A stretch of 64,000 nucleotides of DNA, taken from contig CAYNGY010000001.1 of the NCBI GenBank assembly GCA_964397195.1, positions 376,326 through 440,325 of the forward strand, in the 5' to 3' direction. Below, piece by piece: positions 4,916-40,490 of this stretch. Position 1 is the first letter of the stretch. The number at the start of each line of letters is the position of its first letter. The notes below the pieces were generated by a model that searched no databases, was not told the DNA's origin, and saw only the letters and a program-made list of their open reading frames with translations. This DNA comes from an uncultured Gammaproteobacteria bacterium. GTDB taxonomy: Bacteria; Patescibacteriota; Patescibacteriia; SBBC01; CAIJZX01. Position numbers and translations under genes: made by a program.

Positions 4916-6139
4916 TTACCTTGGCGACGAAGCTACCCGTCGGATCTGATCGGAATAAAGAAGTGCGCAAGATTGCCAACTATAGCGCTCGATTCTTGTG
5001 GCCAGCGCAGGCTGCGAATGGAACGTACCGGCAAGTATTTGGCGAATCGCACGAGAAACTTCCCTTGTATCAAGCGGGTCGATAACGAGTCCCGATTGTG
5101 TCTGCGTGATAATCTCAGCCGCAGCAGTGCCGGCTGTCAATCCAAGGATGGGGCGCTTCGTCCAAAGATATTCAAAAATCTTACCGGTCACAACGCCGCG
5201 CCGACTCGTCGAGGTTAATAACAGCAATGCATCGGCACGTAGCTGGTACGACATCGCTTGTTCACGCGGCATCGCCGGATAGAGACGGATAACATTTCGA
5301 GCGACAAGCGGTGCCATCATCACTTGTTCTGAGACGGAAAATTCGCCAATCATGTGCAACTGAAAAGAGTCTTCGTTCAGGACACCGCTCGACGATAATT
5401 CTTCAAGCGCGCTGAAGAATGGTTGCGGATTACAGGTGGCATCAGAGAGCGTCAATCGGCCGGTAAAGACTACGTGTTTTTGTGTGGATGTGAGCGTAGC
5501 GGGTTTGACGTCAACGAAATCGTCAGGGTCAAAGGCGTTTGTAATCGTTTGTGATCGAGTGCGCGGGTATTTGGACGCATAATATTCGGTAATCGGATCC
5601 GACACGGTCACAATGGCGGACGCGGCATCAGCCGTGCGTCGTTCAAGGTCCATGTAATATGGAGCTAGTGCGCCGCTGGAAATGGCTGGGTTCGTCGGTT
5701 CGAATAAAATACCGTCGCGCAAATCGGCGATGAACGGCGTCGAGTATTTTTTGTGCAATTCCAGGGCGATTTCGAGTACGGCTGCTGAGGGGTAGGTGGC
5801 GATGATGACGTCCGGTGAGGACTCGGTCATGATGCGAGTAGCAACTCGTCGAAAAAGGTAGGACCAGACGTCAAAGGGGCGCTTCCACCAGCCGTGTTGG
5901 TCTGTCCAAACCCGAAACACGCGCCATGGCATGAGCCAAATATTCCGGAGTGACCAACGGCTAACATCGATACGGTACACTCCGTCTGCGACGACGAGTG
6001 GCTGTGAAAGATAGCCGTGCGTGACCACTGACACGGTATGACCCAGCCGGCGAAGATACTTTACTAGTTTCGCTGGACGCTGAACGCCGCCATTATTCAT
6101 CGGCGGGTAGTAGTATGAAATAAGGAGGATGCGCGCCAT
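4916..6139 (-). CDS. Glycosyltransferase family 4
   Basis: The N-terminus MARILLISYYYPPMNNGGVQR and the overall GT-B architecture fit GT4. Confidence 0.8.
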   Translation of the reverse strand: MARILLISYYYPPMNNGGVQRPAKLVKYLRRLGHTVSVVTHGYLSQPLVVADGVYRIDVSRWSLRNIWLMPWRVFRVWTDQHGWWKRPFDVWSYLFRRVATRIMTESSPDVIIATYPSAAVLEIALELHKKYSTPFIADLRDGILFEPTNPAISSGALAPYYMDLERRTADAASAIVTVSDPITEYYASKYPRTRSQTITNAFDPDDFVDVKPATLTSTQKHVVFTGRLTLSDATCNPQPFFSALEELSSSGVLNEDSFQLHMIGEFSVSEQVMMAPLVARNVIRLYPAMPREQAMSYQLRADALLLLTSTSRRGVVTGKIFEYLWTKRPILGLTAGTAAAEIITQTQSGLVIDPLDTREVSRAIRQILAGTFHSQPALATRIERYSWQSCALLYSDQIRRVASSPR

Positions 6140-34589: not shown

Positions 34590-35514
34590 CGATCCTTCGT
34601 GCATTGCCCGCGGCGTTCCGCTCGCGCCGCATACGACCATGAACGTCGGTGGTCCGGCCGCCTACTACGCGGCGGTCGTGGCCGATGACGAGCTCCGGGC
34701 GGTTTTAGCCTGGGCAAAAACGAACGGTCAACCGATGGTTGTTCTCGGCGGCGGAAGTAATGTCATCTTCCCAGACGCCGGATTTTCGGGGGTGGTGATT
34801 CATCCGGCCGATGAGCGGTTGGCGTGGCAGGACGAAACGCTGATTGCCGGTGCCGGAATCGACCTCGAGGTGCTCATCCAAGAAGCATTACGCCACGACC
34901 GCGGCGGGCTCTCGAGTCTGGCCGGTATTCCGGGCCACATCGGCGGCATGACAAGACGTAATGCCGGGAGCGAGCGTGGTTGGCTCGGAGAACATGTGCT
35001 CTGGGTCGAAACGATGAGTCGGGACGGGGAACTGCGTCGCTGGGATCATGACGCCTGTCGTTTTGCTGCCCACCGCAGCGTCTTCCAGTCCGGTGATGAA
35101 ATTATCATTCGTGTTGCCTTCAATCTGCCCGCAGTGACTGGTCGTGAAGAACGCGAACGGATCGAGGCTACGAAACAACTGCGCCTCGAGCATCAACCAA
35201 TCGGCGATCCGTCGGCCGGACGGATGTTCCAGAATGTGATACCGCCAGACCCGTGCCCGCCGAACCTACACTCGATGGTTGGGAAAACGAGTGGCACGAT
35301 TGCGGCCTGGAAACTAGTCGCCGCCGTCGAGCTTGGCGGCTATCAACTTGGGGGGATGAAAATTCACGATCAACACCCGAACTTTTTAGTCAATACTGGA
35401 TCGGGGACCGCGGACCAAGCCGTCCAGCTGATGAGTTTGGTGAAGATGCGCGTTCGTGATACGCTTGGGGTACAACTTCACGACGATATTCAACTGATCG
35501 GATTCAACGTATGA
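34582..35514 (+). CDS. murB: UDP-N-acetylenolpyruvoylglucosamine reductase
   Basis: It has the FAD-binding motif PLAPHTTMNVGGPAAY...VLGGGSNV. Confidence 0.85.
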   Translation: MDNDPSCIARGVPLAPHTTMNVGGPAAYYAAVVADDELRAVLAWAKTNGQPMVVLGGGSNVIFPDAGFSGVVIHPADERLAWQDETLIAGAGIDLEVLIQEALRHDRGGLSSLAGIPGHIGGMTRRNAGSERGWLGEHVLWVETMSRDGELRRWDHDACRFAAHRSVFQSGDEIIIRVAFNLPAVTGREERERIEATKQLRLEHQPIGDPSAGRMFQNVIPPDPCPPNLHSMVGKTSGTIAAWKLVAAVELGGYQLGGMKIHDQHPNFLVNTGSGTADQAVQLMSLVKMRVRDTLGVQLHDDIQLIGFNV

Positions 35515-35831
35515 ACATCACCATCTCCGCCAAAGATTTCGACCTGACGCCGTCAATTAAGACGTACGTCGAGGAAAAGATCGGGAAGCTGGCGAAATTC
35601 AGTACGCGCATTAAACGCATCGGCGTTGAACTTGATGTCGACCATTCGGCCAAAAGCGGGCTCCTTAATCGGATTGAAGTCTGGGTTTACCTGCCGGAAA
35701 AGACGCTTCAAGCCGGATTAAAAGCGGAGCAGATGCGTGAAGCAATTGATCTCGTCTATCCGAAGATGGAACGGCAAATCGTTTCGTACGAAGGAAAGCG
35801 ACGCGACAAAAAGCGCGGCGTACGCGTGTAG
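35511..35831 (+). CDS. hpf: Ribosome hibernation promoting factor (HPF/RaiA, short form)
   Basis: MNITISAKDFDLTPSIKTYVEEKIGKLAKF is the sigma54-modulation/RaiA fold signature. Confidence 0.85.
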   Translation: MNITISAKDFDLTPSIKTYVEEKIGKLAKFSTRIKRIGVELDVDHSAKSGLLNRIEVWVYLPEKTLQAGLKAEQMREAIDLVYPKMERQIVSYEGKRRDKKRGVRV

Positions 35832-35906
35832 TGACAACACGCCGGCTGATTTCAGAAGCAGGTACGCGACCAAGGTAACCTTTTAGTATACATAACGAAA
35901 CTGCCC

Positions 35907-35952
35907 CGGATCACGACTCGTAGTCCGGGGTCGCTGAAAAAGCCGTTTTTTT
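35907..35952 (+). terminator. Possible intrinsic terminator after hpf
   Basis: The hairpin is CCCCGGA-13 nt-TCCGGGG, followed by a downstream T-run (gccgttttttt). The geometry is imperfect. Confidence 0.35.
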
Positions 35953-36135
35953 GGCTAACCTACGCAAAAAAATTTTCATGATCCTGCTCGACGCCTGCTT
36001 CTCGATGCGGGCTTCGGCAAGCTTAGTTCTACCTCGAAGGGTATTCATCTCATTATTGCTCGACCCGGGTGGAGAACAGTGGCGTGCTGACAACGCCTTG
36101 ACGTCAGCCTGACCGTGACGTAGGTTCAAGCCATC

Positions 36136-36195
36136 ATTCCCAGGCAGGGGAATGCGTTCCGCTCCGGCGGCCGACGGTGAAACTCCTACGCCCCC
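36136..36195 (+). promoter_or_regulatory. Conserved 5' leader element, copy 1 (shared with 37063)
   Basis: The 32-nt sequence ATTCCCAGGCAGGGGAATGCGTTCCGCTCCGG is identical to copy 2. About 20 more nt are similar (GGCGAYGGTGAAACTCCT). It can form two mutually exclusive hairpins (ATTCCC/GGGAAT versus GGAA-TGCG-TTCC). A possible TTGACG-17-TAGGTT promoter lies just upstream. Confidence 0.55.
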
Positions 36196-36254
36196 GTGAG
36201 ACCGTTCGCACTTTGACGACCATACCTTGCTTCGGCCAGGGATTGGAGGACGCA

Positions 36255-36821
36255 ATGCCGTCCAGTATGAAGACGCAGATGGTGGGCCAGCTCGCTGACT
36301 TACTGCGCACGAAGGTGTTCGTTCGTTTCGACGAACACGCCGTTGCTGTGCAGGTTCCTGGTGTGTCCGCCGGACGGATGAACCGCATCACCGTCGTTCA
36401 TGCATCACAGACGCCTCGCCGCGGCCCCGCTTCCACGCACACCGTCCTGGCGATCGAAGTCACGTTTCCTCGGCCGTGGACAAAGAAGCTTGACGTGGCC
36501 AGCGCTCCCCTTATTCGATACGTCCCAGATCTTGGGAGTGAGGTGTATCAGGAGGAACTCCGGTCTATCGTCACCAAGCTCACCGACGAAAGTGGCCCCG
36601 AGATCATGTGGTACCCGGGGACGTGGGGTGGACTCCACGGTTGCTACGGACTCATTGACGGGCTCAACGCTCACCCGACGCTCGCCACCATATTCGATCT
36701 GGCTCGAGTCTGGGAGATGGTGTGGGCACGGACGCGCGGCATCCATCCGCTCGAGGCTGAAGCCGATACGCTACTCGCGCGGCTGAACGCCATGATCTCC
36801 TCATCGACACGAACCTCGTAG
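36255..36821 (+). CDS. Hypothetical cytoplasmic protein (188 aa), cassette 1
   Basis: GGAGG lies 5 nt before the ATG at 36255. The track ORF is a 36177 GTG-start extension. No recognised domain was found. A terminator follows. Confidence 0.6.
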   Translation: MPSSMKTQMVGQLADLLRTKVFVRFDEHAVAVQVPGVSAGRMNRITVVHASQTPRRGPASTHTVLAIEVTFPRPWTKKLDVASAPLIRYVPDLGSEVYQEELRSIVTKLTDESGPEIMWYPGTWGGLHGCYGLIDGLNAHPTLATIFDLARVWEMVWARTRGIHPLEAEADTLLARLNAMISSSTRTS

Positions 36822-36830
36822 TTCCCTGCA

Positions 36831-36859
36831 CCCGCCGCTGCCCCGGCGGGATTCTTTTT
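36831..36859 (+). terminator. Intrinsic terminator, cassette 1
   Basis: The stem-loop is CCCGCCG-ctgccc-CGGCGGG followed by attcttttt. It is near-identical to the terminator at 37712. Confidence 0.65.
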
Positions 36860-37062
36860 GTGTAAGTTGAAAGAAAATACCCAACGAGTATCCCTGAGGG
36901 AACCGAAGGGTCTCCAAATGACCATGTTTTCGGTTAAGGAGATCCTTCGCCCGGCTCAGGAATTCAGGTAATTGTAAACAGCCACTACCACTACACCACC
37001 CTGAACTTTACGAATGTTAGCTAACTTTACTTCCGGAAAAAAGTAGAGTAAGGTGCGCCTAG

Positions 37063-37122
37063 ATTCCCAGGCAGGGGAATGCGTTCCGCTCCGGAGGGCG
37101 ATGGTGAAACTCCTTACCCCGC
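37063..37122 (+). promoter_or_regulatory. Conserved 5' leader element, copy 2
   Basis: It has the same 32-nt core as 36136 and a similar extension. It is preceded by a possible TTTACT-17-TAAGGT promoter. Confidence 0.55.
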
Positions 37123-37183
37123 CGCGAGTTCGTACTTACCACATTCGTTCACTACCGCTGGTGCGGTCGGTGACGGAGGCAGT

Positions 37184-37699
37184 ATGGCTGATCAGTTGGA
37201 TGCTGAATGGATGGAGCGGGTGCTGCAGTCACAGTTGATCATCCGCGGCACCGAGTTCCAGAGTGGGCTCGTTCGGATCGTTGTGCTCGGCGCCCACGCG
37301 GTCGACGATGATCATCGGGTTCTGCTAACGGCCAGCCTTGATAGCAAGTGGCCCGACGAAGACGACAGCCGTCCCTTTTTCCCGACCTTCTCCTGCAGTG
37401 GAGAAATCCCGGTCACATATTTCCGTGGGCTCCTGGAACGGAAGTGTGCGGCCTGGAGCGCGTTGCACAACCCATGGCTGGCGCGCCAGCAGTCGTTCTT
37501 CGTTGCCGACGGAGGGCATGAATCCAACGGTGTGTTCATGCCGCACATCGGTCGGCTCGAGCTTGGGATGCAGTACAATGCGCGGTTCGCGACTGACCGA
37601 TCGACGGTGAAGGCGCTCGAGTGGATGATCCCACGCTTCAACGCATTCGCCTCGGCCAGTCGGCGTGAGCATCTGGATCGTCGTCCGGTCGAGTCGTAA
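37184..37699 (+). CDS. Hypothetical cytoplasmic protein (171 aa), cassette 2
   Basis: GGAGG lies 4 nt before the ATG at 37184 (MADQLDAEW...). The track ORF from 37079 begins inside the leader. It is at most distantly similar to the cassette 1 protein. Confidence 0.6.
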   Translation: MADQLDAEWMERVLQSQLIIRGTEFQSGLVRIVVLGAHAVDDDHRVLLTASLDSKWPDEDDSRPFFPTFSCSGEIPVTYFRGLLERKCAAWSALHNPWLARQQSFFVADGGHESNGVFMPHIGRLELGMQYNARFATDRSTVKALEWMIPRFNAFASASRREHLDRRPVES

Positions 37700-37711
37700 C
37701 GACCATCGTTC

Positions 37712-37740
37712 CCCGCCGCTGCCTCGGCGGGAACTTTTTA
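37712..37740 (+). terminator. Intrinsic terminator, cassette 2
   Basis: The stem-loop is CCCGCCG-ctgcct-CGGCGGG followed by aacttttt. Confidence 0.65.
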
Positions 37741-37790
37741 TACAAAATCGACTTGCTTTGACGTTCCATTTGTGGTAGCGTGCGGGGGCT

Positions 37791-40490
37791 ATGAGCATCC
37801 TCGGGAAACTCTTTGGAGACGCAAATACGAAGGCCGTCAAAGATCTTCAGCCACTGGTTGATGCAATCAACGCCGAAAAAGCGGCCGCGGCCGCCCGCAG
37901 CCTCGATCAGATCAAGGCGCGGATGCTCGAACTGCGCACCCAGGTGGGCGGCGATTCGAAGCACCTCGACGCGATCCTGCCGGAGGTTTTTGCCTTAACG
38001 CGTGAAGCCTCGAAGCGCACCATCGGTCTCGAGCATTTTGATGTCCAAATGATCGGCGGGATTACGCTCCACCGCGGTCAAATTTCGGAAATGCGAACTG
38101 GCGAAGGAAAAACTCTTGTCGCCACGACTGCCGTGGCGCTCAACGCCCTAACCGGGCTCGGCGTGCACGTCGTGACGGTCAACGATTACCTCGCCCGGCG
38201 CGACGCTGGCTGGATGGGCGCGGTCTACAATGCGCTCGGTCTAACGGTCGGGATAATCATTCATGAGCAGGCGTTCCAATACGATGCCGACTTTACGAAT
38301 CCTGATGCCCTCGAAGAACGCACACTCCATCTGCGCCCGATTGAACGACAACAAGCCTACGCCTGCGATATCACCTACGGGACGAATAACGAGTTTGGTT
38401 TCGACTACCTCCGCGACAACATGATTCCGGACCAGAAATATATGGTCCAACGGCCGTTTTATTACGCCATTGTCGATGAAGTAGACTCCATTTTAATCGA
38501 CGAAGCGCGAACGCCATTAATTATTTCCGCGCCAGCTGAAGAATCAACCGAACGATACCGACAATTCGCCCAAATTGTGACCACGCTCGATGCGGCGACC
38601 GACTATGCCATTGACGAAAAGCTACGCGCCGCAACGCTGACCGAGTCCGGGATCACCAAAGTTGAGAAGGCGCTTCATCTCGATAACTTGTATGCCGCCG
38701 GGGGCGTTGAGCTCGTTCATCATCTCGAGCAGGCGCTCAAAGCGCGCACCTTGTTCACCCTTGATAAAGATTATGTCGTCAAAGACGGAGAAGTTATCAT
38801 CGTTGATGAATTTACCGGCCGCTTGATGCATGGGCGACGCTACTCCGAAGGGCTCCACCAGGCGATCGAAGCGAAAGAAGGGCTCGACGTCAAACAAGAA
38901 AATTTGACCATGGCCACGGTTACCTTGCAAAACCTGTTTCGGATGTACCCGAAATTAGCTGGCATGACCGGGACCGCTGCCTCTGAAGCCGAAGAATTCC
39001 ACAAAATTTACAACCTTGACGTGACAGTCATCCCGACGAATCGGCCCATGGTGCGCAAAGACGCGCAGGATAGCGTCTACAAAAACGAGCAGGGGAAATT
39101 CATGGCCGTCGTCCGGGAAATCAAACGTCGTCAGGAATCCGGTCAGCCGGTACTCGTCGGCACGATTTCGATTGAGAAGAATGAACTGTTGTCTGAACTA
39201 TTGACCCGTGAGGGCGTGACCCACGAAGTCCTGAACGCCAAGAACCACGAACGCGAAGCGCAGATTATCGCCCAAGCTGGTCGCCCGGGTGCGGTCACCT
39301 TGGCCACGAACATCGCCGGTCGCGGCGTTGACATCATCCTCGGCGGGACGCCTCCCACGCCCGAGGCGGCGGAAAAAGCCAAGCAGGCCGGCGGTCTCCA
39401 CGTCCTCGGTACCGAGCGACATGAGTCACGACGTATCGATAACCAACTTCGTGGACGTTCCGGACGGCAAGGTGACCCGGGGTCAAGTCAGTTCTTTGTG
39501 TCGATGGAAGATGACCTGATGCGCATCTTCGGGTCTGATCGGATGAAATCGCTGATGGATCGGATGGGTGTGCCGGATGATATGCCAATTGAATCGGGGA
39601 TCGTTAGCCGCTCGATTGAGCAAGCCCAGAAAAAAGTCGAAGGTCACAACTTTGATACTCGGAAGCATCTCGTCGAATACGATGACGTCATGAATAAACA
39701 CCGCGAGGTCATCTACAAACGGCGACGGGAGATTCTCGTCGGGCCCGCGGCGGACATGATTCCGAAAGTGAAAGAGATAGTCGAAAAAGAAATTCATCAC
39801 GTCGTGGCCTTCCACACCGCCGCCGAGCACGTCCACGACTGGGACCTCGACGCGGTCTACAACGCTATCAACGCCATGTGCGTCTTGGAAGTGAAGGATC
39901 GGTTAGCGCTGGAGGAGCTGAAAGGTGGTGACGGCCTGTCCGACGCGGCGGCCCGAACGAAAATTATCGAACGCCTCGTCGCCCACGCCAATGCCTCGCT
40001 TGATGATCTTGCTAGCCAGGCCCCAGACCCGGCAGTTTTCCCCGAGGTGGTGCGGAATGTGATGTTACGAACGATCGATCAGCTCTGGGTCGAGCACCTC
40101 GAGCACGTCGATCGTTTGCGTGAGGGGATTGGGCTTCGTGGCTACGCCCAGCGCGAACCGCTGGTGGAATACAAGAAAGAAGCCTACGAACTCTTCTCCC
40201 GCTTAATTCACTCGATCAATACCCAGATCGCCAACACGATCTTTAAGGTCACCATTGCCCCAGCCTCACAAATGGCCGCCCAACCGAAACAGAATCTGCA
40301 ACTCTCCGCCCCGCAGAAAGAAGCGACGGAAAACCGCTCGTCCATCGGACTCAAATTCGACAACCCGATCGTGCATGGCGTCGATATTTCGAAAGTTGGC
40401 CGAAATGACGAGTGCCCGTGCGGTTCAGGCAAGAAGTTCAAGAAATGCTACTTAGCAAACGACCCCGGCTGTAAACTGCGCCAGGGCTAA
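37791..40490 (+). CDS. secA: Preprotein translocase ATPase SecA
   Basis: It is 899 aa with the DEAD motor motifs. The C-terminal zinc finger is CPCGSGKKFKKCY. Confidence 0.95.
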   Translation: MSILGKLFGDANTKAVKDLQPLVDAINAEKAAAAARSLDQIKARMLELRTQVGGDSKHLDAILPEVFALTREASKRTIGLEHFDVQMIGGITLHRGQISEMRTGEGKTLVATTAVALNALTGLGVHVVTVNDYLARRDAGWMGAVYNALGLTVGIIIHEQAFQYDADFTNPDALEERTLHLRPIERQQAYACDITYGTNNEFGFDYLRDNMIPDQKYMVQRPFYYAIVDEVDSILIDEARTPLIISAPAEESTERYRQFAQIVTTLDAATDYAIDEKLRAATLTESGITKVEKALHLDNLYAAGGVELVHHLEQALKARTLFTLDKDYVVKDGEVIIVDEFTGRLMHGRRYSEGLHQAIEAKEGLDVKQENLTMATVTLQNLFRMYPKLAGMTGTAASEAEEFHKIYNLDVTVIPTNRPMVRKDAQDSVYKNEQGKFMAVVREIKRRQESGQPVLVGTISIEKNELLSELLTREGVTHEVLNAKNHEREAQIIAQAGRPGAVTLATNIAGRGVDIILGGTPPTPEAAEKAKQAGGLHVLGTERHESRRIDNQLRGRSGRQGDPGSSQFFVSMEDDLMRIFGSDRMKSLMDRMGVPDDMPIESGIVSRSIEQAQKKVEGHNFDTRKHLVEYDDVMNKHREVIYKRRREILVGPAADMIPKVKEIVEKEIHHVVAFHTAAEHVHDWDLDAVYNAINAMCVLEVKDRLALEELKGGDGLSDAAARTKIIERLVAHANASLDDLASQAPDPAVFPEVVRNVMLRTIDQLWVEHLEHVDRLREGIGLRGYAQREPLVEYKKEAYELFSRLIHSINTQIANTIFKVTIAPASQMAAQPKQNLQLSAPQKEATENRSSIGLKFDNPIVHGVDISKVGRNDECPCGSGKKFKKCYLANDPGCKLRQG

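What the first reader, a model, noticed from the sequence alone, without database searches (positions are those of the whole stretch)
36100..37745. Two tandem gene cassettes with identical leader RNA and identical terminators inserted between hpf and secA
In many bacteria hpf is followed directly by secA. Here 1.9 kb intervenes. It carries two small ORFs of 188 aa and 171 aa with no recognisable domains and no signal peptides. Each ORF sits behind its own weak promoter and has a GGAGG SD. Each is preceded by the same 32-nt sequence ATTCCCAGGCAGGGGAATGCGTTCCGCTCCGG, identical in both copies, plus about 20 nt of a similar extension GGCGAYGGTGAAACTCCT. Each is followed by the same terminator hairpin CCCGCCGCTGCCYCGGCGGG. 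The coding parts are at best remotely similar to each other. The pair looks like a conserved-flank, variable-cargo arrangement. The leader can fold into two mutually exclusive hairpins (ATTCCC/GGGAAT versus GGAA/TTCC) that share the GGGAAT segment. That is the logic of a riboswitch or attenuator. It is equally the logic of a 6-N6-6 palindromic operator for a dimeric regulator. I could not match it to any riboswitch class I know. This is the least explained and most system-like region of the window.
Basis: seen in the sequence. Interest (0 to 1): 0.75.

Follow-up and report, generated by a model that had tools for sequence, protein, structure and literature searches.

The report
mRNA leader paired to its terminator
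Two small genes of unknown function between hpf and secA in an uncultured Patescibacteria genome share a strongly conserved, folded 5' leader RNA, and the loop of its first hairpin is the exact complement of the loop of the gene's own terminator, which suggests that the two ends of the mRNA pair with each other.

Summary
A 52-nt leader repeat (first 32 nt identical) and a 20-nt terminator repeat each occur exactly twice in the window, flanking ORF1 (188 aa) and ORF2 (171 aa). No Rfam, Pfam, PADLOC, PHROGs or NCBIfam family matches.

- **ORF1:** it has no homolog anywhere.
- **ORF2:** it has three distant homologs (25-38% aa) in metagenomic contigs. All sit directly upstream of secA.
- **Conservation:** each homolog carries the same ~120-nt leader at 73-86% nt identity. 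The adjacent secA coding DNA is 66-74% identical and the ORF2 coding DNA 37-45%. The leader is therefore a selected element, not a passive duplication.
- **Structure:** a 5'-terminal hairpin P1, a bulged stem P2 and a hairpin P3 next to a masked Shine-Dalgarno. Three base pairs show compensatory changes.
- **New finding:** the P1 loop AGGCAG is the exact complement of the terminator loop CUGCCU. In one lineage both changed together, to AGACAG and CUGUCU.

I read this as a kissing contact between the 5' and 3' ends of the mRNA that controls stability or translation. It resembles the icaR and hbs 5'/3'-UTR pairings but uses the terminator loop. The function is inferred, the family is tiny (5 leader copies, 4 organisms), and the effector and the protein function are unknown.

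The parts
35511..35831 (+). hpf (short hibernation-promoting factor), upstream neighbour
   Evidence: Pfam Ribosomal_S30AE, E 1.2e-17
36098..36126 (+). Promoter of unit 1: TTGACG, 17-nt spacer, TAGGTT; the -10 hexamer ends 9 nt before P1
   Evidence: Read from the sequence. The same geometry, TTGACA-17-TAGGNT followed by 8 nt, is seen in L082 and L083. The strict sigma-70 scan does not call it.
36136..36153 (+). P1 of leader 1: 5'-terminal hairpin ATTCCC/GGGAAT with loop AGGCAG
36162..36200 (+). P2 of leader 1: bulged stem CUCCGG.GGC ... GCC.CCG.GAG
   Evidence: The GGC/GCC version is compensatory relative to GGG/CCC in leader 2.
36220..36249 (+). Leader 1, diverged 3' part: P3-like hairpin with a UUCG loop, then SD GGAGG (36245-36249)
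36255..36821 (+). ORF1, 188 aa; no homolog found (ORFan)
   Evidence: Only a self hit among 5.8 billion proteins. Coding signal in its frame. AlphaFold2 single-sequence model has pLDDT 39.
36831..36858 (+). Terminator 1: stem CCCGCCG/CGGCGGG, loop CTGCCC (pairs with 5 of the 6 P1 loop bases), T-run
36893..36960 (+). 68-nt hairpin in the spacer between the units; role unknown and possibly unrelated
   Evidence: MFE -38.4 kcal/mol, z -4.4
37026..37054 (+). Promoter of unit 2: TTTACT, 17-nt spacer, TAAGGT; the -10 hexamer ends 8 nt before P1
   Evidence: Read from the sequence
37063..37080 (+). P1 of leader 2: hairpin ATTCCC/GGGAAT with loop AGGCAG
37084..37088 (+). UUCCG tract, complementary to CGGAG of the SD (proposed helix P0)
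   Evidence: RNAalifold. Paired in 95% of cells but invariant.
37089..37128 (+). P2 of leader 2: bulged stem CUCCGG.GGG ... CCC.CCG.GAG
   Evidence: 100% of cells paired, 1 compensatory pair
37149..37173 (+). P3 hairpin directly upstream of the SD
   Evidence: 2 compensatory pairs across orthologs
37174..37179 (+). SD region CGGAGG; predicted mostly paired
   Evidence: P(unpaired) 0.01-0.17 in the full-length fold
37184..37699 (+). ORF2, 171 aa; member of a very small, fast-evolving family with no known fold
37712..37739 (+). Terminator 2: stem CCCGCCG/CGGCGGG, loop CTGCCT (exact complement of the P1 loop), T-run
37791..40490 (+). secA, downstream neighbour
   Evidence: Pfam SecA_DEAD, E 4.5e-116

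Best explanation
Each unit is a monocistronic gene. Its mRNA starts at, or within about 2 nt of, a 6-bp hairpin with a 6-nt loop (P1). The rest of the ~120-nt 5' UTR follows: a conserved bulged stem P2, a conserved 20-nt junction, and a hairpin P3 next to the Shine-Dalgarno. The SD itself can pair with a UUCCG tract located between P1 and P2. The mRNA ends in an intrinsic terminator whose 6-nt loop is the Watson-Crick complement of the P1 loop.

I propose that the two loops form a 6-bp kissing complex that links the 5' and 3' ends of the finished transcript, and that this sets mRNA stability and/or access to the masked SD. The leader and terminator together would then be one RNA-level cis-regulatory device. 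Unit 2 (ORF2) is the ancestral unit of a small Patescibacteria clade. Unit 1 (ORF1) is a tandem paralogous copy that kept P1, P2 and the terminator while the rest diverged.

Shown: the repeats, cross-species conservation above that of secA, compensatory pairs in P2, P3 and the terminator stem, and loop complementarity with one covariation. Inferred: the transcription start, that the loops actually pair in RNA, and the direction of the effect.
For: 1. **Conservation.** Leader nt identity is 73-86% between organisms whose SecA is 72-78% identical at the aa level. The secA coding DNA is 66-74% identical, the ORF2 coding DNA 37-45%, and the ORF2 protein 25-38%.
2. **Conserved position.** The unit lies immediately upstream of secA in L081, L082 and L083/L084.
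3. **Structure.** 97.6% of cells are paired, against 42-58% when the partners are slid by 1-3 columns. There are 3 compensatory pairs: P2 pair 36-56, and P3 pairs 89-109 and 95-102. The P2 change GGC/GCC versus GGG/CCC is also seen between the two window copies.
4. **Loop complementarity.** The P1 loop / terminator loop pairs are AGGCAG/CTGCCT in W2, L081 and L082, AGACAG/CTGTCT in L083 and L084, and AGGCAG/CTGCCC in W1. The kissing helix is paired in 96.7% of cells with one compensatory pair. Duplex energies are -8.4, -6.3 and -7.8 kcal/mol for the cognate pairs, against -1.2 for the non-cognate AGACAG/CUGCCU.
5. **Uniqueness.** These are the only hairpins in the 64-kb window with these loops.
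6. **Promoter geometry.** The -35, 17-nt spacer, TANNNT -10 and 8-9 nt gap put P1 at the 5' end of the transcript in all copies.
7. **Not coding.** There is no conserved uORF and no coding signal in the leader.
8. **SD masking.** The SD is predicted mostly paired in all five mRNAs.
9. **Precedents.** 5'/3'-UTR pairing within one bacterial mRNA is documented for icaR (PMC3868564), hbs (PMC5737220) and in a review (PMC7821165).
Against: - There are only five leader copies from four organisms, so each covariation is a single evolutionary event.
- I noticed the loop complementarity post hoc. With 3 leader loops as candidates the chance of an exact 6-mer match is roughly 3/4096, and the L083 covariation adds roughly 1/18.
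- A loose scan finds about ten chance loop-complementary hairpin pairs in the window, so complementarity alone is not rare. The case rests on position, conservation and covariation.
- W1 has one mismatch in the kissing helix.
- L081 has a U-U mismatch and a G-U pair in the P1 stem.
- P0 (UUCCG with the SD) is invariant, so it is untested by covariation.
- The leader folds are not more stable than shuffled sequences (z -0.8 to +0.8).
- No transcript ends were mapped.
- A dsDNA reading of the same complementarity, as an inverted repeat, is not formally excluded.
- The effect on expression is unknown. A coaxial P1-kiss-terminator stack of about 19 bp could equally be an RNase III target.
Confidence: 0.5

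Rival explanations
1. The leader is a ligand-sensing or protein-binding translational switch, in effect an orphan riboswitch or an RNA-binding-protein site. P2, the junction and P3 would form a three-way junction whose closing helix (UUCCG/CGGAG) masks the SD. P1 would only be a 5' stabiliser, and its match to the terminator loop would be incidental. This is partly compatible with the best explanation.
For: Sequence conservation is highest in the P2 internal loops and the junction, while the P2 apical loop varies (UGAAACU, UGAAAAU, CCUAGCU). RNAalifold predicts the SD-masking helix. The SD is predicted paired. The P2 loop GUGAA can alternatively pair with UUCAC of P3 in 3 of 4 orthologs. The same P1-P2 module sits in front of two different proteins in the window.
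Against: No Rfam class matches, even at E <= 10. The regulated genes give no hint of a ligand. It does not explain why the terminator loop is conserved while its stem covaries, nor why that loop co-varies with the P1 loop. The family is too small for a covariation test of the junction.
Confidence: 0.25
2. ATTCCC-N6-GGGAAT is a DNA operator at about +1 for a dimeric repressor that co-regulates both genes. The RNA folds would be by-products.
For: It is a perfect 6-N6-6 palindrome directly downstream of the -10 hexamer in both window copies and in L082 and L083.
Against: Conservation extends about 100 nt beyond the palindrome, with compensatory pairs that only make sense in RNA. In L081 the arms become ATTCTC/GGGATT, which are no longer symmetric. 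The central N6, normally free in such operators, is conserved and covaries with the terminator loop. No candidate regulator was identified.
Confidence: 0.08
3. The units are mobile or recombination cassettes whose ends, P1 and the terminator, are inverted repeats recognised at the DNA level. This is the conserved-flank, variable-cargo reading.
For: The two ends read as inverted copies. In W2 the reverse complement of the terminator is TTCCC-GCCG-AGGCAG-CGGC-GGGGAA, against ATTCCC-AGGCAG-GGGAAT for P1. Two different cargos are present in the window. The hpf-secA slot differs in the relative L001, which holds an AdoMet decarboxylase gene.
Against: The promoter lies outside the supposed element. 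The unit is at the same place, directly upstream of secA, in four organisms. There are no further copies in the window, in 25 related loci, or in the viral, metagenome and genome scans. Only one cargo family is seen outside the window. There is no phage link. The outer TTCCC/GGGAA similarity is not conserved in L081 or L082.
Confidence: 0.05
4. A recent neutral tandem duplication of a promoter and terminator region with no special function.
For: There are only two copies in the window, and they are adjacent.
Against: The leader is conserved across organisms more strongly than the secA coding sequence. The coding parts between the repeats have diverged beyond recognition while 32 nt stay identical.
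Confidence: 0.02

Closest known systems
icaR mRNA 5'UTR-3'UTR pairing in Staphylococcus aureus (PMC3868564; review PMC7821165)
   Same: A sequence at the 3' end of an mRNA is complementary to its own 5' UTR. In W2 and L081 the terminator loop CUGCCUC is also complementary to the SD region GAGGCAG, which resembles the icaR anti-SD UCCCC motif.
   Different: icaR uses a long (>100 nt) 3' UTR and a linear anti-SD stretch that pairs with the SD. Here the 3' UTR is only 10-30 nt. The conserved partner is the loop of the intrinsic terminator, and its conserved target is the loop of the 5'-terminal hairpin, not the SD. The organisms are Patescibacteria and there is no experimental data.
hbs mRNA 5'/3'-UTR interaction in Bacillus subtilis (PMC5737220)
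   Same: A long-range pairing between the two UTRs of a short monocistronic mRNA with a highly structured leader, affecting ribonuclease access.
   Different: In hbs it is a 14-bp linear duplex that overlaps an RNase Y site. Here it is a 6-bp loop-loop contact between two stable hairpins.
Loop-loop (kissing) complexes of antisense RNAs and of S. aureus RNAIII with its targets (general knowledge; review PMC8383071 lists sRNA loop-loop pairing)
   Same: GC-rich 6-7-nt hairpin loops that are fully complementary. Such complexes are fast to form and are often RNase III substrates.
   Different: Those act in trans between two RNAs. Here both loops are on the same transcript, and could also act between the two paralogous transcripts.
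Riboswitches and other structured 5' leaders (Rfam)
   Same: A conserved, structured ~120-nt 5' UTR with compensatory base pairs and a masked SD.
   Different: No Rfam 15 family matches. No ligand is known and there is no transcription terminator in the leader. The distribution is limited to four metagenomic organisms.

Membership tests
Any described riboswitch or cis-regulatory RNA family (Rfam 15) | Covariance-model score at or above the family's gathering threshold | tested here: not met
   cmscan at E <= 10 on 35800-37900, on each leader alone, and on L081-L084. Only noise was found, 10-17 bits against gathering scores of 38-75.
Riboswitch (generic) | Direct, specific ligand binding by the leader RNA | not testable with these tools
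   Needs in-line probing or ITC. The gene context gives no candidate ligand.
Riboswitch (generic) | Conserved structured aptamer with covariation plus an expression platform | tested here: inconclusive
   Structure is supported (97.6% paired, 3 compensatory pairs) and the SD-masking helix is predicted. With only 4-5 sequences and an invariant P0 helix, this cannot be settled.
Transcription attenuator | Intrinsic terminator (GC hairpin plus U-tract) inside the leader, with an alternative antiterminator | tested here: not met
   The terminator scan finds sites only after the ORFs (36831, 37712) and none within 36136-36254 or 37063-37183.
5'UTR-3'UTR pairing mRNAs (icaR / hbs type) | Complementarity between the 5' UTR and the 3' end of the same mRNA | tested here: met
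   6 of 6 complementary loop bases in W2, L081, L082 and L083, and 5 of 6 in W1.
5'UTR-3'UTR pairing mRNAs (icaR / hbs type) | Pairing maintained in evolution (covariation) | tested here: met
   L083/L084 have G to A in the P1 loop and C to T at the pairing position of the terminator loop. This is a single event.
5'UTR-3'UTR pairing mRNAs (icaR / hbs type) | Demonstrated physical interaction and an effect on translation or decay | not testable with these tools
   Requires probing and compensatory mutagenesis.
5'UTR-3'UTR pairing mRNAs (icaR / hbs type) | Long 3' UTR carrying a linear pairing stretch (icaR >100 nt; hbs 14 bp) | tested here: not met
   The distance from stop codon to terminator stem is 9-25 nt, and the pairing element is the terminator loop itself.
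Palindromic repressor operator | Symmetric half-sites conserved, central spacer free to vary | tested here: not met
   The half-sites lose symmetry in L081 (ATTCTC/GGGATT), while the central 6 nt are conserved and covary with the terminator loop.
Palindromic repressor operator | Cognate DNA-binding regulator | not tested
   No regulator was searched for in the window. L083/L084 carry an extra 101-aa gene with no Pfam hit next to the unit.
Integron-type or mobile gene cassette | The same flanks around different cargos at several sites, with recombination sites (attC, or TIR plus target duplication) | tested here: not met
   There are no further copies in the window, in 25 related loci, or in the public scans. 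The position next to secA is fixed in four organisms. Each unit has its own promoter outside the repeat.
Integron-type or mobile gene cassette | Associated integrase or transposase | not tested
   The window's ORFs were not all scanned against Pfam.

The most novel reading that the evidence does not exclude
A built-in closed-loop bacterial mRNA. The loop of the intrinsic terminator kisses the loop of the 5'-terminal hairpin, so only a completed transcript acquires its stable or translatable conformation. This would be a 5'-3' communication device maintained by compensatory evolution in Patescibacteria, attached to a previously undescribed structured leader that gates a fast-evolving protein family next to secA.
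Probability: 0.4. Interest if true: 0.75.

Novelty: new variant of a known kind. Interest (0 to 1): 0.6.

Why it matters
Pairing between the two ends of a bacterial mRNA is documented for only a handful of genes (hld/RNAIII, icaR, hbs), all in Firmicutes and all as linear duplexes. A loop-loop contact that uses the terminator hairpin itself would show that a terminator can carry regulatory information in its loop. It would also give a minimal, easily engineered 5'-3' coupling module: two 18-20-nt hairpins.

It would also be one of the very few cis-regulatory RNAs described for the Patescibacteria/CPR. Their post-transcriptional control is essentially unknown and they cannot be grown alone.

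The hypothesis is directly testable with compensatory loop mutations in vitro or in a heterologous host. The limits are a very narrow distribution and cargo proteins of unknown function.

Tried and rejected
**RNA family and motif checks**
- Known RNA families: four Rfam runs found nothing. From memory I considered the cobalamin (GGGAA...GGUGAAAnUCC) and fluoride (GAUGG) motifs. The resemblances are superficial and the covariance models do not match.
- uORF or leader peptide: ATG 37079 is in frame with ORF2 in W2 only. W1 stops after 15 codons, L081 and L082 have no ATG there, and L083 has a 6-codon ORF in another register. Rejected.
- The 13-nt complementarity between P1 plus linker and the ORF2 3' coding region (I1/I2) is not conserved in L081. 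I treat it as chance.
- Long-range partner for the P2 apical loop: only GUGAA/UUCAC with P3 in 3 of 4 orthologs, which is inconclusive.

**Searches for more leader copies**
- A 21-mer in genome contigs found 0.
- A gapped pattern in viral and metagenome contigs found 0.
- A degenerate 30-mer found one metagenome hit, a chance match inside a lipoprotein gene (L085), and 0 viral hits.
- Covariance model R1 found nothing beyond the training set in the window and 25 Patescibacteria loci.

**Protein function**
- Pfam, PADLOC, PHROGs and NCBIfam found nothing.
- The ORF1 single-sequence AlphaFold2 model is unusable (pLDDT 39).
- No phage relatives were found.
- P0005 and P0006 from the HMMER search are repeat-driven false positives.
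- SecM-like arrest peptide upstream of secA: rejected. There is no signal peptide, the C-terminus is not conserved among homologs, and a terminator separates ORF2 from secA.

**Other**
- ORF1 as a paralog of ORF2: hhalign gives only a weak C-terminal match (E 0.057). Shuffle tests give z 1.3-3.9. Left open.
Full report
**1. The observation**

The region between hpf (35511-35831; Pfam Ribosomal_S30AE) and secA (37791-40490) is 1,959 nt long. It holds two same-strand ORFs, 36255-36821 (188 aa) and 37184-37699 (171 aa).

- The repeat finder reports a 52-nt direct repeat at 36136-36187 and 37063-37114 (94% identity) and a 28-nt repeat covering the two terminators.
- The 32-mer and the 20-nt terminator hairpin each occur exactly twice in the 64-kb window, against 0.00 and 0.01 expected.
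- Both hairpins score as intrinsic terminators.
- MAFFT shows similarity for about 75 nt, and the two leaders are 119 and 121 nt long.
- Both ORFs show coding-type codon usage in their own frame. The in-frame 5' extension of ORF2, used by the NCBI protein P0002, does not.
- The proteins are not similar to each other. They match nothing in Pfam, PADLOC, PHROGs or NCBIfam.

**2. Who else has it**

A SecA-based scan places the organism in the Patescibacteria. The nearest species representative is L001, at 72% SecA identity. In L001 the hpf-secA slot holds an AdoMet decarboxylase gene instead, so the slot is variable in this clade.

ORF1 has only a self hit among 5.8 billion proteins. ORF2 also had only a self hit in the word-indexed search. 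An exhaustive HMMER scan then found three genuine distant homologs, P0003, P0004 and P0007 (E 5e-15 to 1.5e-5), sharing an N-terminal motif IDxEWMxxVLxSQ(L/V)IIRG. Two other hits were repeat artefacts.

The contigs encoding these homologs are L081, L082 and L083/L084. All show the gene immediately upstream of secA, and in L084 it is downstream of hpf. Every one carries the same leader and the same kind of terminator.

**3. The leader is under selection**

| Sequence compared | Identity between organisms |
|---|---|
| SecA protein | 72-78% aa |
| secA coding DNA | 66-74% nt |
| ORF2 coding DNA | 37-45% nt |
| ORF2 protein | 25-38% aa |
| Leader | 73-86% nt |

A non-coding stretch that is better conserved than the neighbouring secA gene is a functional element.

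- There is no conserved uORF. The ATG inside the repeat is absent in L081 and L082 and out of register in L083.
- No Rfam 15 family matches any of the leaders, even at E <= 10.
- A covariance model of P1 plus P2 finds no further copy in the window or in 25 related loci.
- DNA pattern scans of the genome, metagenome and viral collections find nothing real.

The family is therefore very small.

**4. Anatomy**

The promoter has the same geometry in all copies: TTGAC(A/G) (TTTACT in W2), a 17-nt spacer, TAGGNT or TAAGGT, then 8-9 nt before ATTCCC. The strict E. coli-type scan does not call it. By inference from this geometry, P1 sits at the very 5' end of the transcript.

The leader structure runs as follows:
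- P1, ATTCCC/GGGAAT with a 6-nt loop.
- A linker containing UUCCG.
- P2, CUCCGG.GGS ... SCC.CCG.GAG, with conserved internal loops and a variable apex.
- A conserved 20-nt junction.
- P3, UCACUACC.../...GGUCGGUGA, abutting the SD.
- RNAalifold additionally pairs UUCCG with CGGAG of the SD.

On the four ORF2-type leaders, 97.6% of cells are paired, against 42-58% when partners are slid by 1-3 columns. Three pairs carry compensatory changes. The P2 change GGC/GCC versus GGG/CCC also separates the two window copies. The SD is predicted mostly paired in all five full-length mRNAs. Neither leader contains a terminator, so this is not an attenuator.

**5. The new point: the two ends match**

The P1 loop and the terminator loop are reverse complements:

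| Copy | P1 loop | Terminator loop | Complementary bases |
|---|---|---|---|
| W2, L081, L082 | AGGCAG | CTGCCT | 6 of 6 |
| L083/L084 | AGACAG | CTGTCT | 6 of 6 |
| W1 | AGGCAG | CTGCCC | 5 of 6 |

- The terminator stem covaries freely (CCGCCG, CCACCG, CCCGCG) while its loop is held constant or changes only together with P1.
- The cognate duplexes are -8.4, -6.3 and -7.8 kcal/mol. The non-cognate AGACAG/CUGCCU is -1.2.
- No other hairpin in the window carries these loops.
- For a pre-specified pair of loops, an exact 6-mer match has probability 1/4096, or roughly 3/4096 allowing for the three leader loops. The compensating substitution adds about 1/18.

Caveats apply. I noticed this post hoc. 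A loose scan shows about ten chance loop-complementary hairpin pairs in the window. The covariation is a single event.

Secondary complementarities that are not conserved: the SD region GAGGCAG against the terminator loop in W2 and L081 only, and TTCCCTGC in the W1 3' UTR against P1.

**6. Interpretation**

The most economical reading is a 6-bp kissing complex between the 5'-terminal hairpin and the terminator hairpin of the same mRNA. Because the window has two paralogous mRNAs with the same P1 loop, the contact could also form between them.

This would tie stability and/or unmasking of the SD to completion of the transcript. The direction of the effect is not determined. One possibility is protection of both ends. 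The other is creation of a ~19-bp coaxial stack that RNase III could cut.

Documented relatives are the icaR and hbs 5'/3'-UTR pairings (PMC3868564, PMC5737220, PMC7821165). They use linear duplexes and, for icaR, a long 3' UTR. Here the partner is the terminator loop itself. My literature searches did not turn up a described case of a terminator loop kissing a 5' hairpin, but they were not exhaustive.

**7. Rivals**

- A ligand- or protein-responsive leader remains plausible and is compatible with end pairing. It fails to explain the terminator loop.
- A DNA operator is disfavoured: the arms are asymmetric in L081, the central 6 nt are conserved and covarying, and RNA-type compensatory pairs lie far beyond the palindrome.
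- A mobile cassette is disfavoured: the position next to secA is fixed, the promoter lies outside the repeat, there are no other copies, and outside the window there is only one cargo family.
- A neutral duplication is contradicted by the cross-species conservation.

**8. The two units and their proteins**

Leader 1 has the same length and the same order of elements as leader 2 (P1, P2, junction, a hairpin, SD), but its 3' half has diverged. This points to duplication of the whole unit.

ORF1 may be a diverged paralog of ORF2:
- hhalign gives only a weak C-terminal match, ARLNAMISS against RLNA(F/Y) (E 0.057).
- Global alignment z scores are 1.3-3.9.
- The order of predicted secondary-structure elements is similar.

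This remains unproven.

The ORF2 family model (pLDDT 77.5, pTM 0.75) has no convincing match in the PDB. There are no phage relatives. The function is unknown. The family evolves very fast for a gene kept at a fixed position.

**9. Verdict**

This is a real, selected and previously undescribed RNA element, consisting of a leader plus its terminator. There is good but thin evidence for pairing between the 5' and 3' ends. I class it as a new variant of a known kind. Interest is moderate to high because the hypothesis is sharp and testable. It is limited by the tiny distribution and the unknown cargo function.

Noticed in passing
window 36893-36960: A 68-nt near-perfect hairpin lies in the AT-richer spacer between the two units (MFE -38.4 kcal/mol, z -4.4; also stable on the minus strand, z -3.6). 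There is no Rfam hit and its role is unknown.
   Followed up: partly
L001 5467-5919 and its leader 5345-5466: In the closest species representative, the hpf-secA slot holds an AdoMet decarboxylase gene (Pfam AdoMet_dc, 7e-26). A GC-rich, visibly self-complementary leader precedes it and is unrelated to the one studied here. It could be a separate cis-regulatory RNA.
   Followed up: no
L001 5275-5330; L082 33-140: Long hairpins built on CCAGCCCCACTTT / AAAGTGGGGCTGG lie just downstream of hpf in two related organisms (z -5.9 and -3.7). This is possibly a conserved clade-specific element. It is not present at that place in the window.
   Followed up: partly
window 37079-37183 and 36255-36266: The public annotation appears to have the wrong start codons. 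P0002 (206 aa) starts at an ATG inside the leader, whereas the homologs, the SD and the codon statistics support 37184. P0001 (184 aa) starts at 36267, whereas the SD favours 36255.
   Followed up: yes
L083 78-383 / L084 546-851: An extra 101-aa gene with its own promoter-like TTGACA and no Pfam hit sits between hpf and the leader-ORF2 unit. By eye it looks like a small winged-helix protein and could be a regulator.
   Followed up: partly
window 37176-37182 with 37719-37725; L081 145-151 with 701-707: In W2 and L081 only, the SD region GAGGCAG is complementary over 7 nt to the terminator loop plus one base (CTGCCTC). This is an icaR-like anti-SD possibility that is not conserved in L082 or L083.
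   Followed up: partly
window 36823-36830 with 36144-36152: The 3' UTR of unit 1 contains TTCCCTGC, complementary to GCAGGG(G)AA of its own P1. This is a second 5'-3' complementarity in the copy whose kissing helix has a mismatch.
   Followed up: partly
window 37640-37652: A 13-nt stretch, AACGCATTCGCCT, near the 3' end of the ORF2 coding region is 92% complementary to AGGGGAATGCGTT of both leaders (repeat finder I1/I2). It is not conserved in L081, so it is probably chance.
   Followed up: partly
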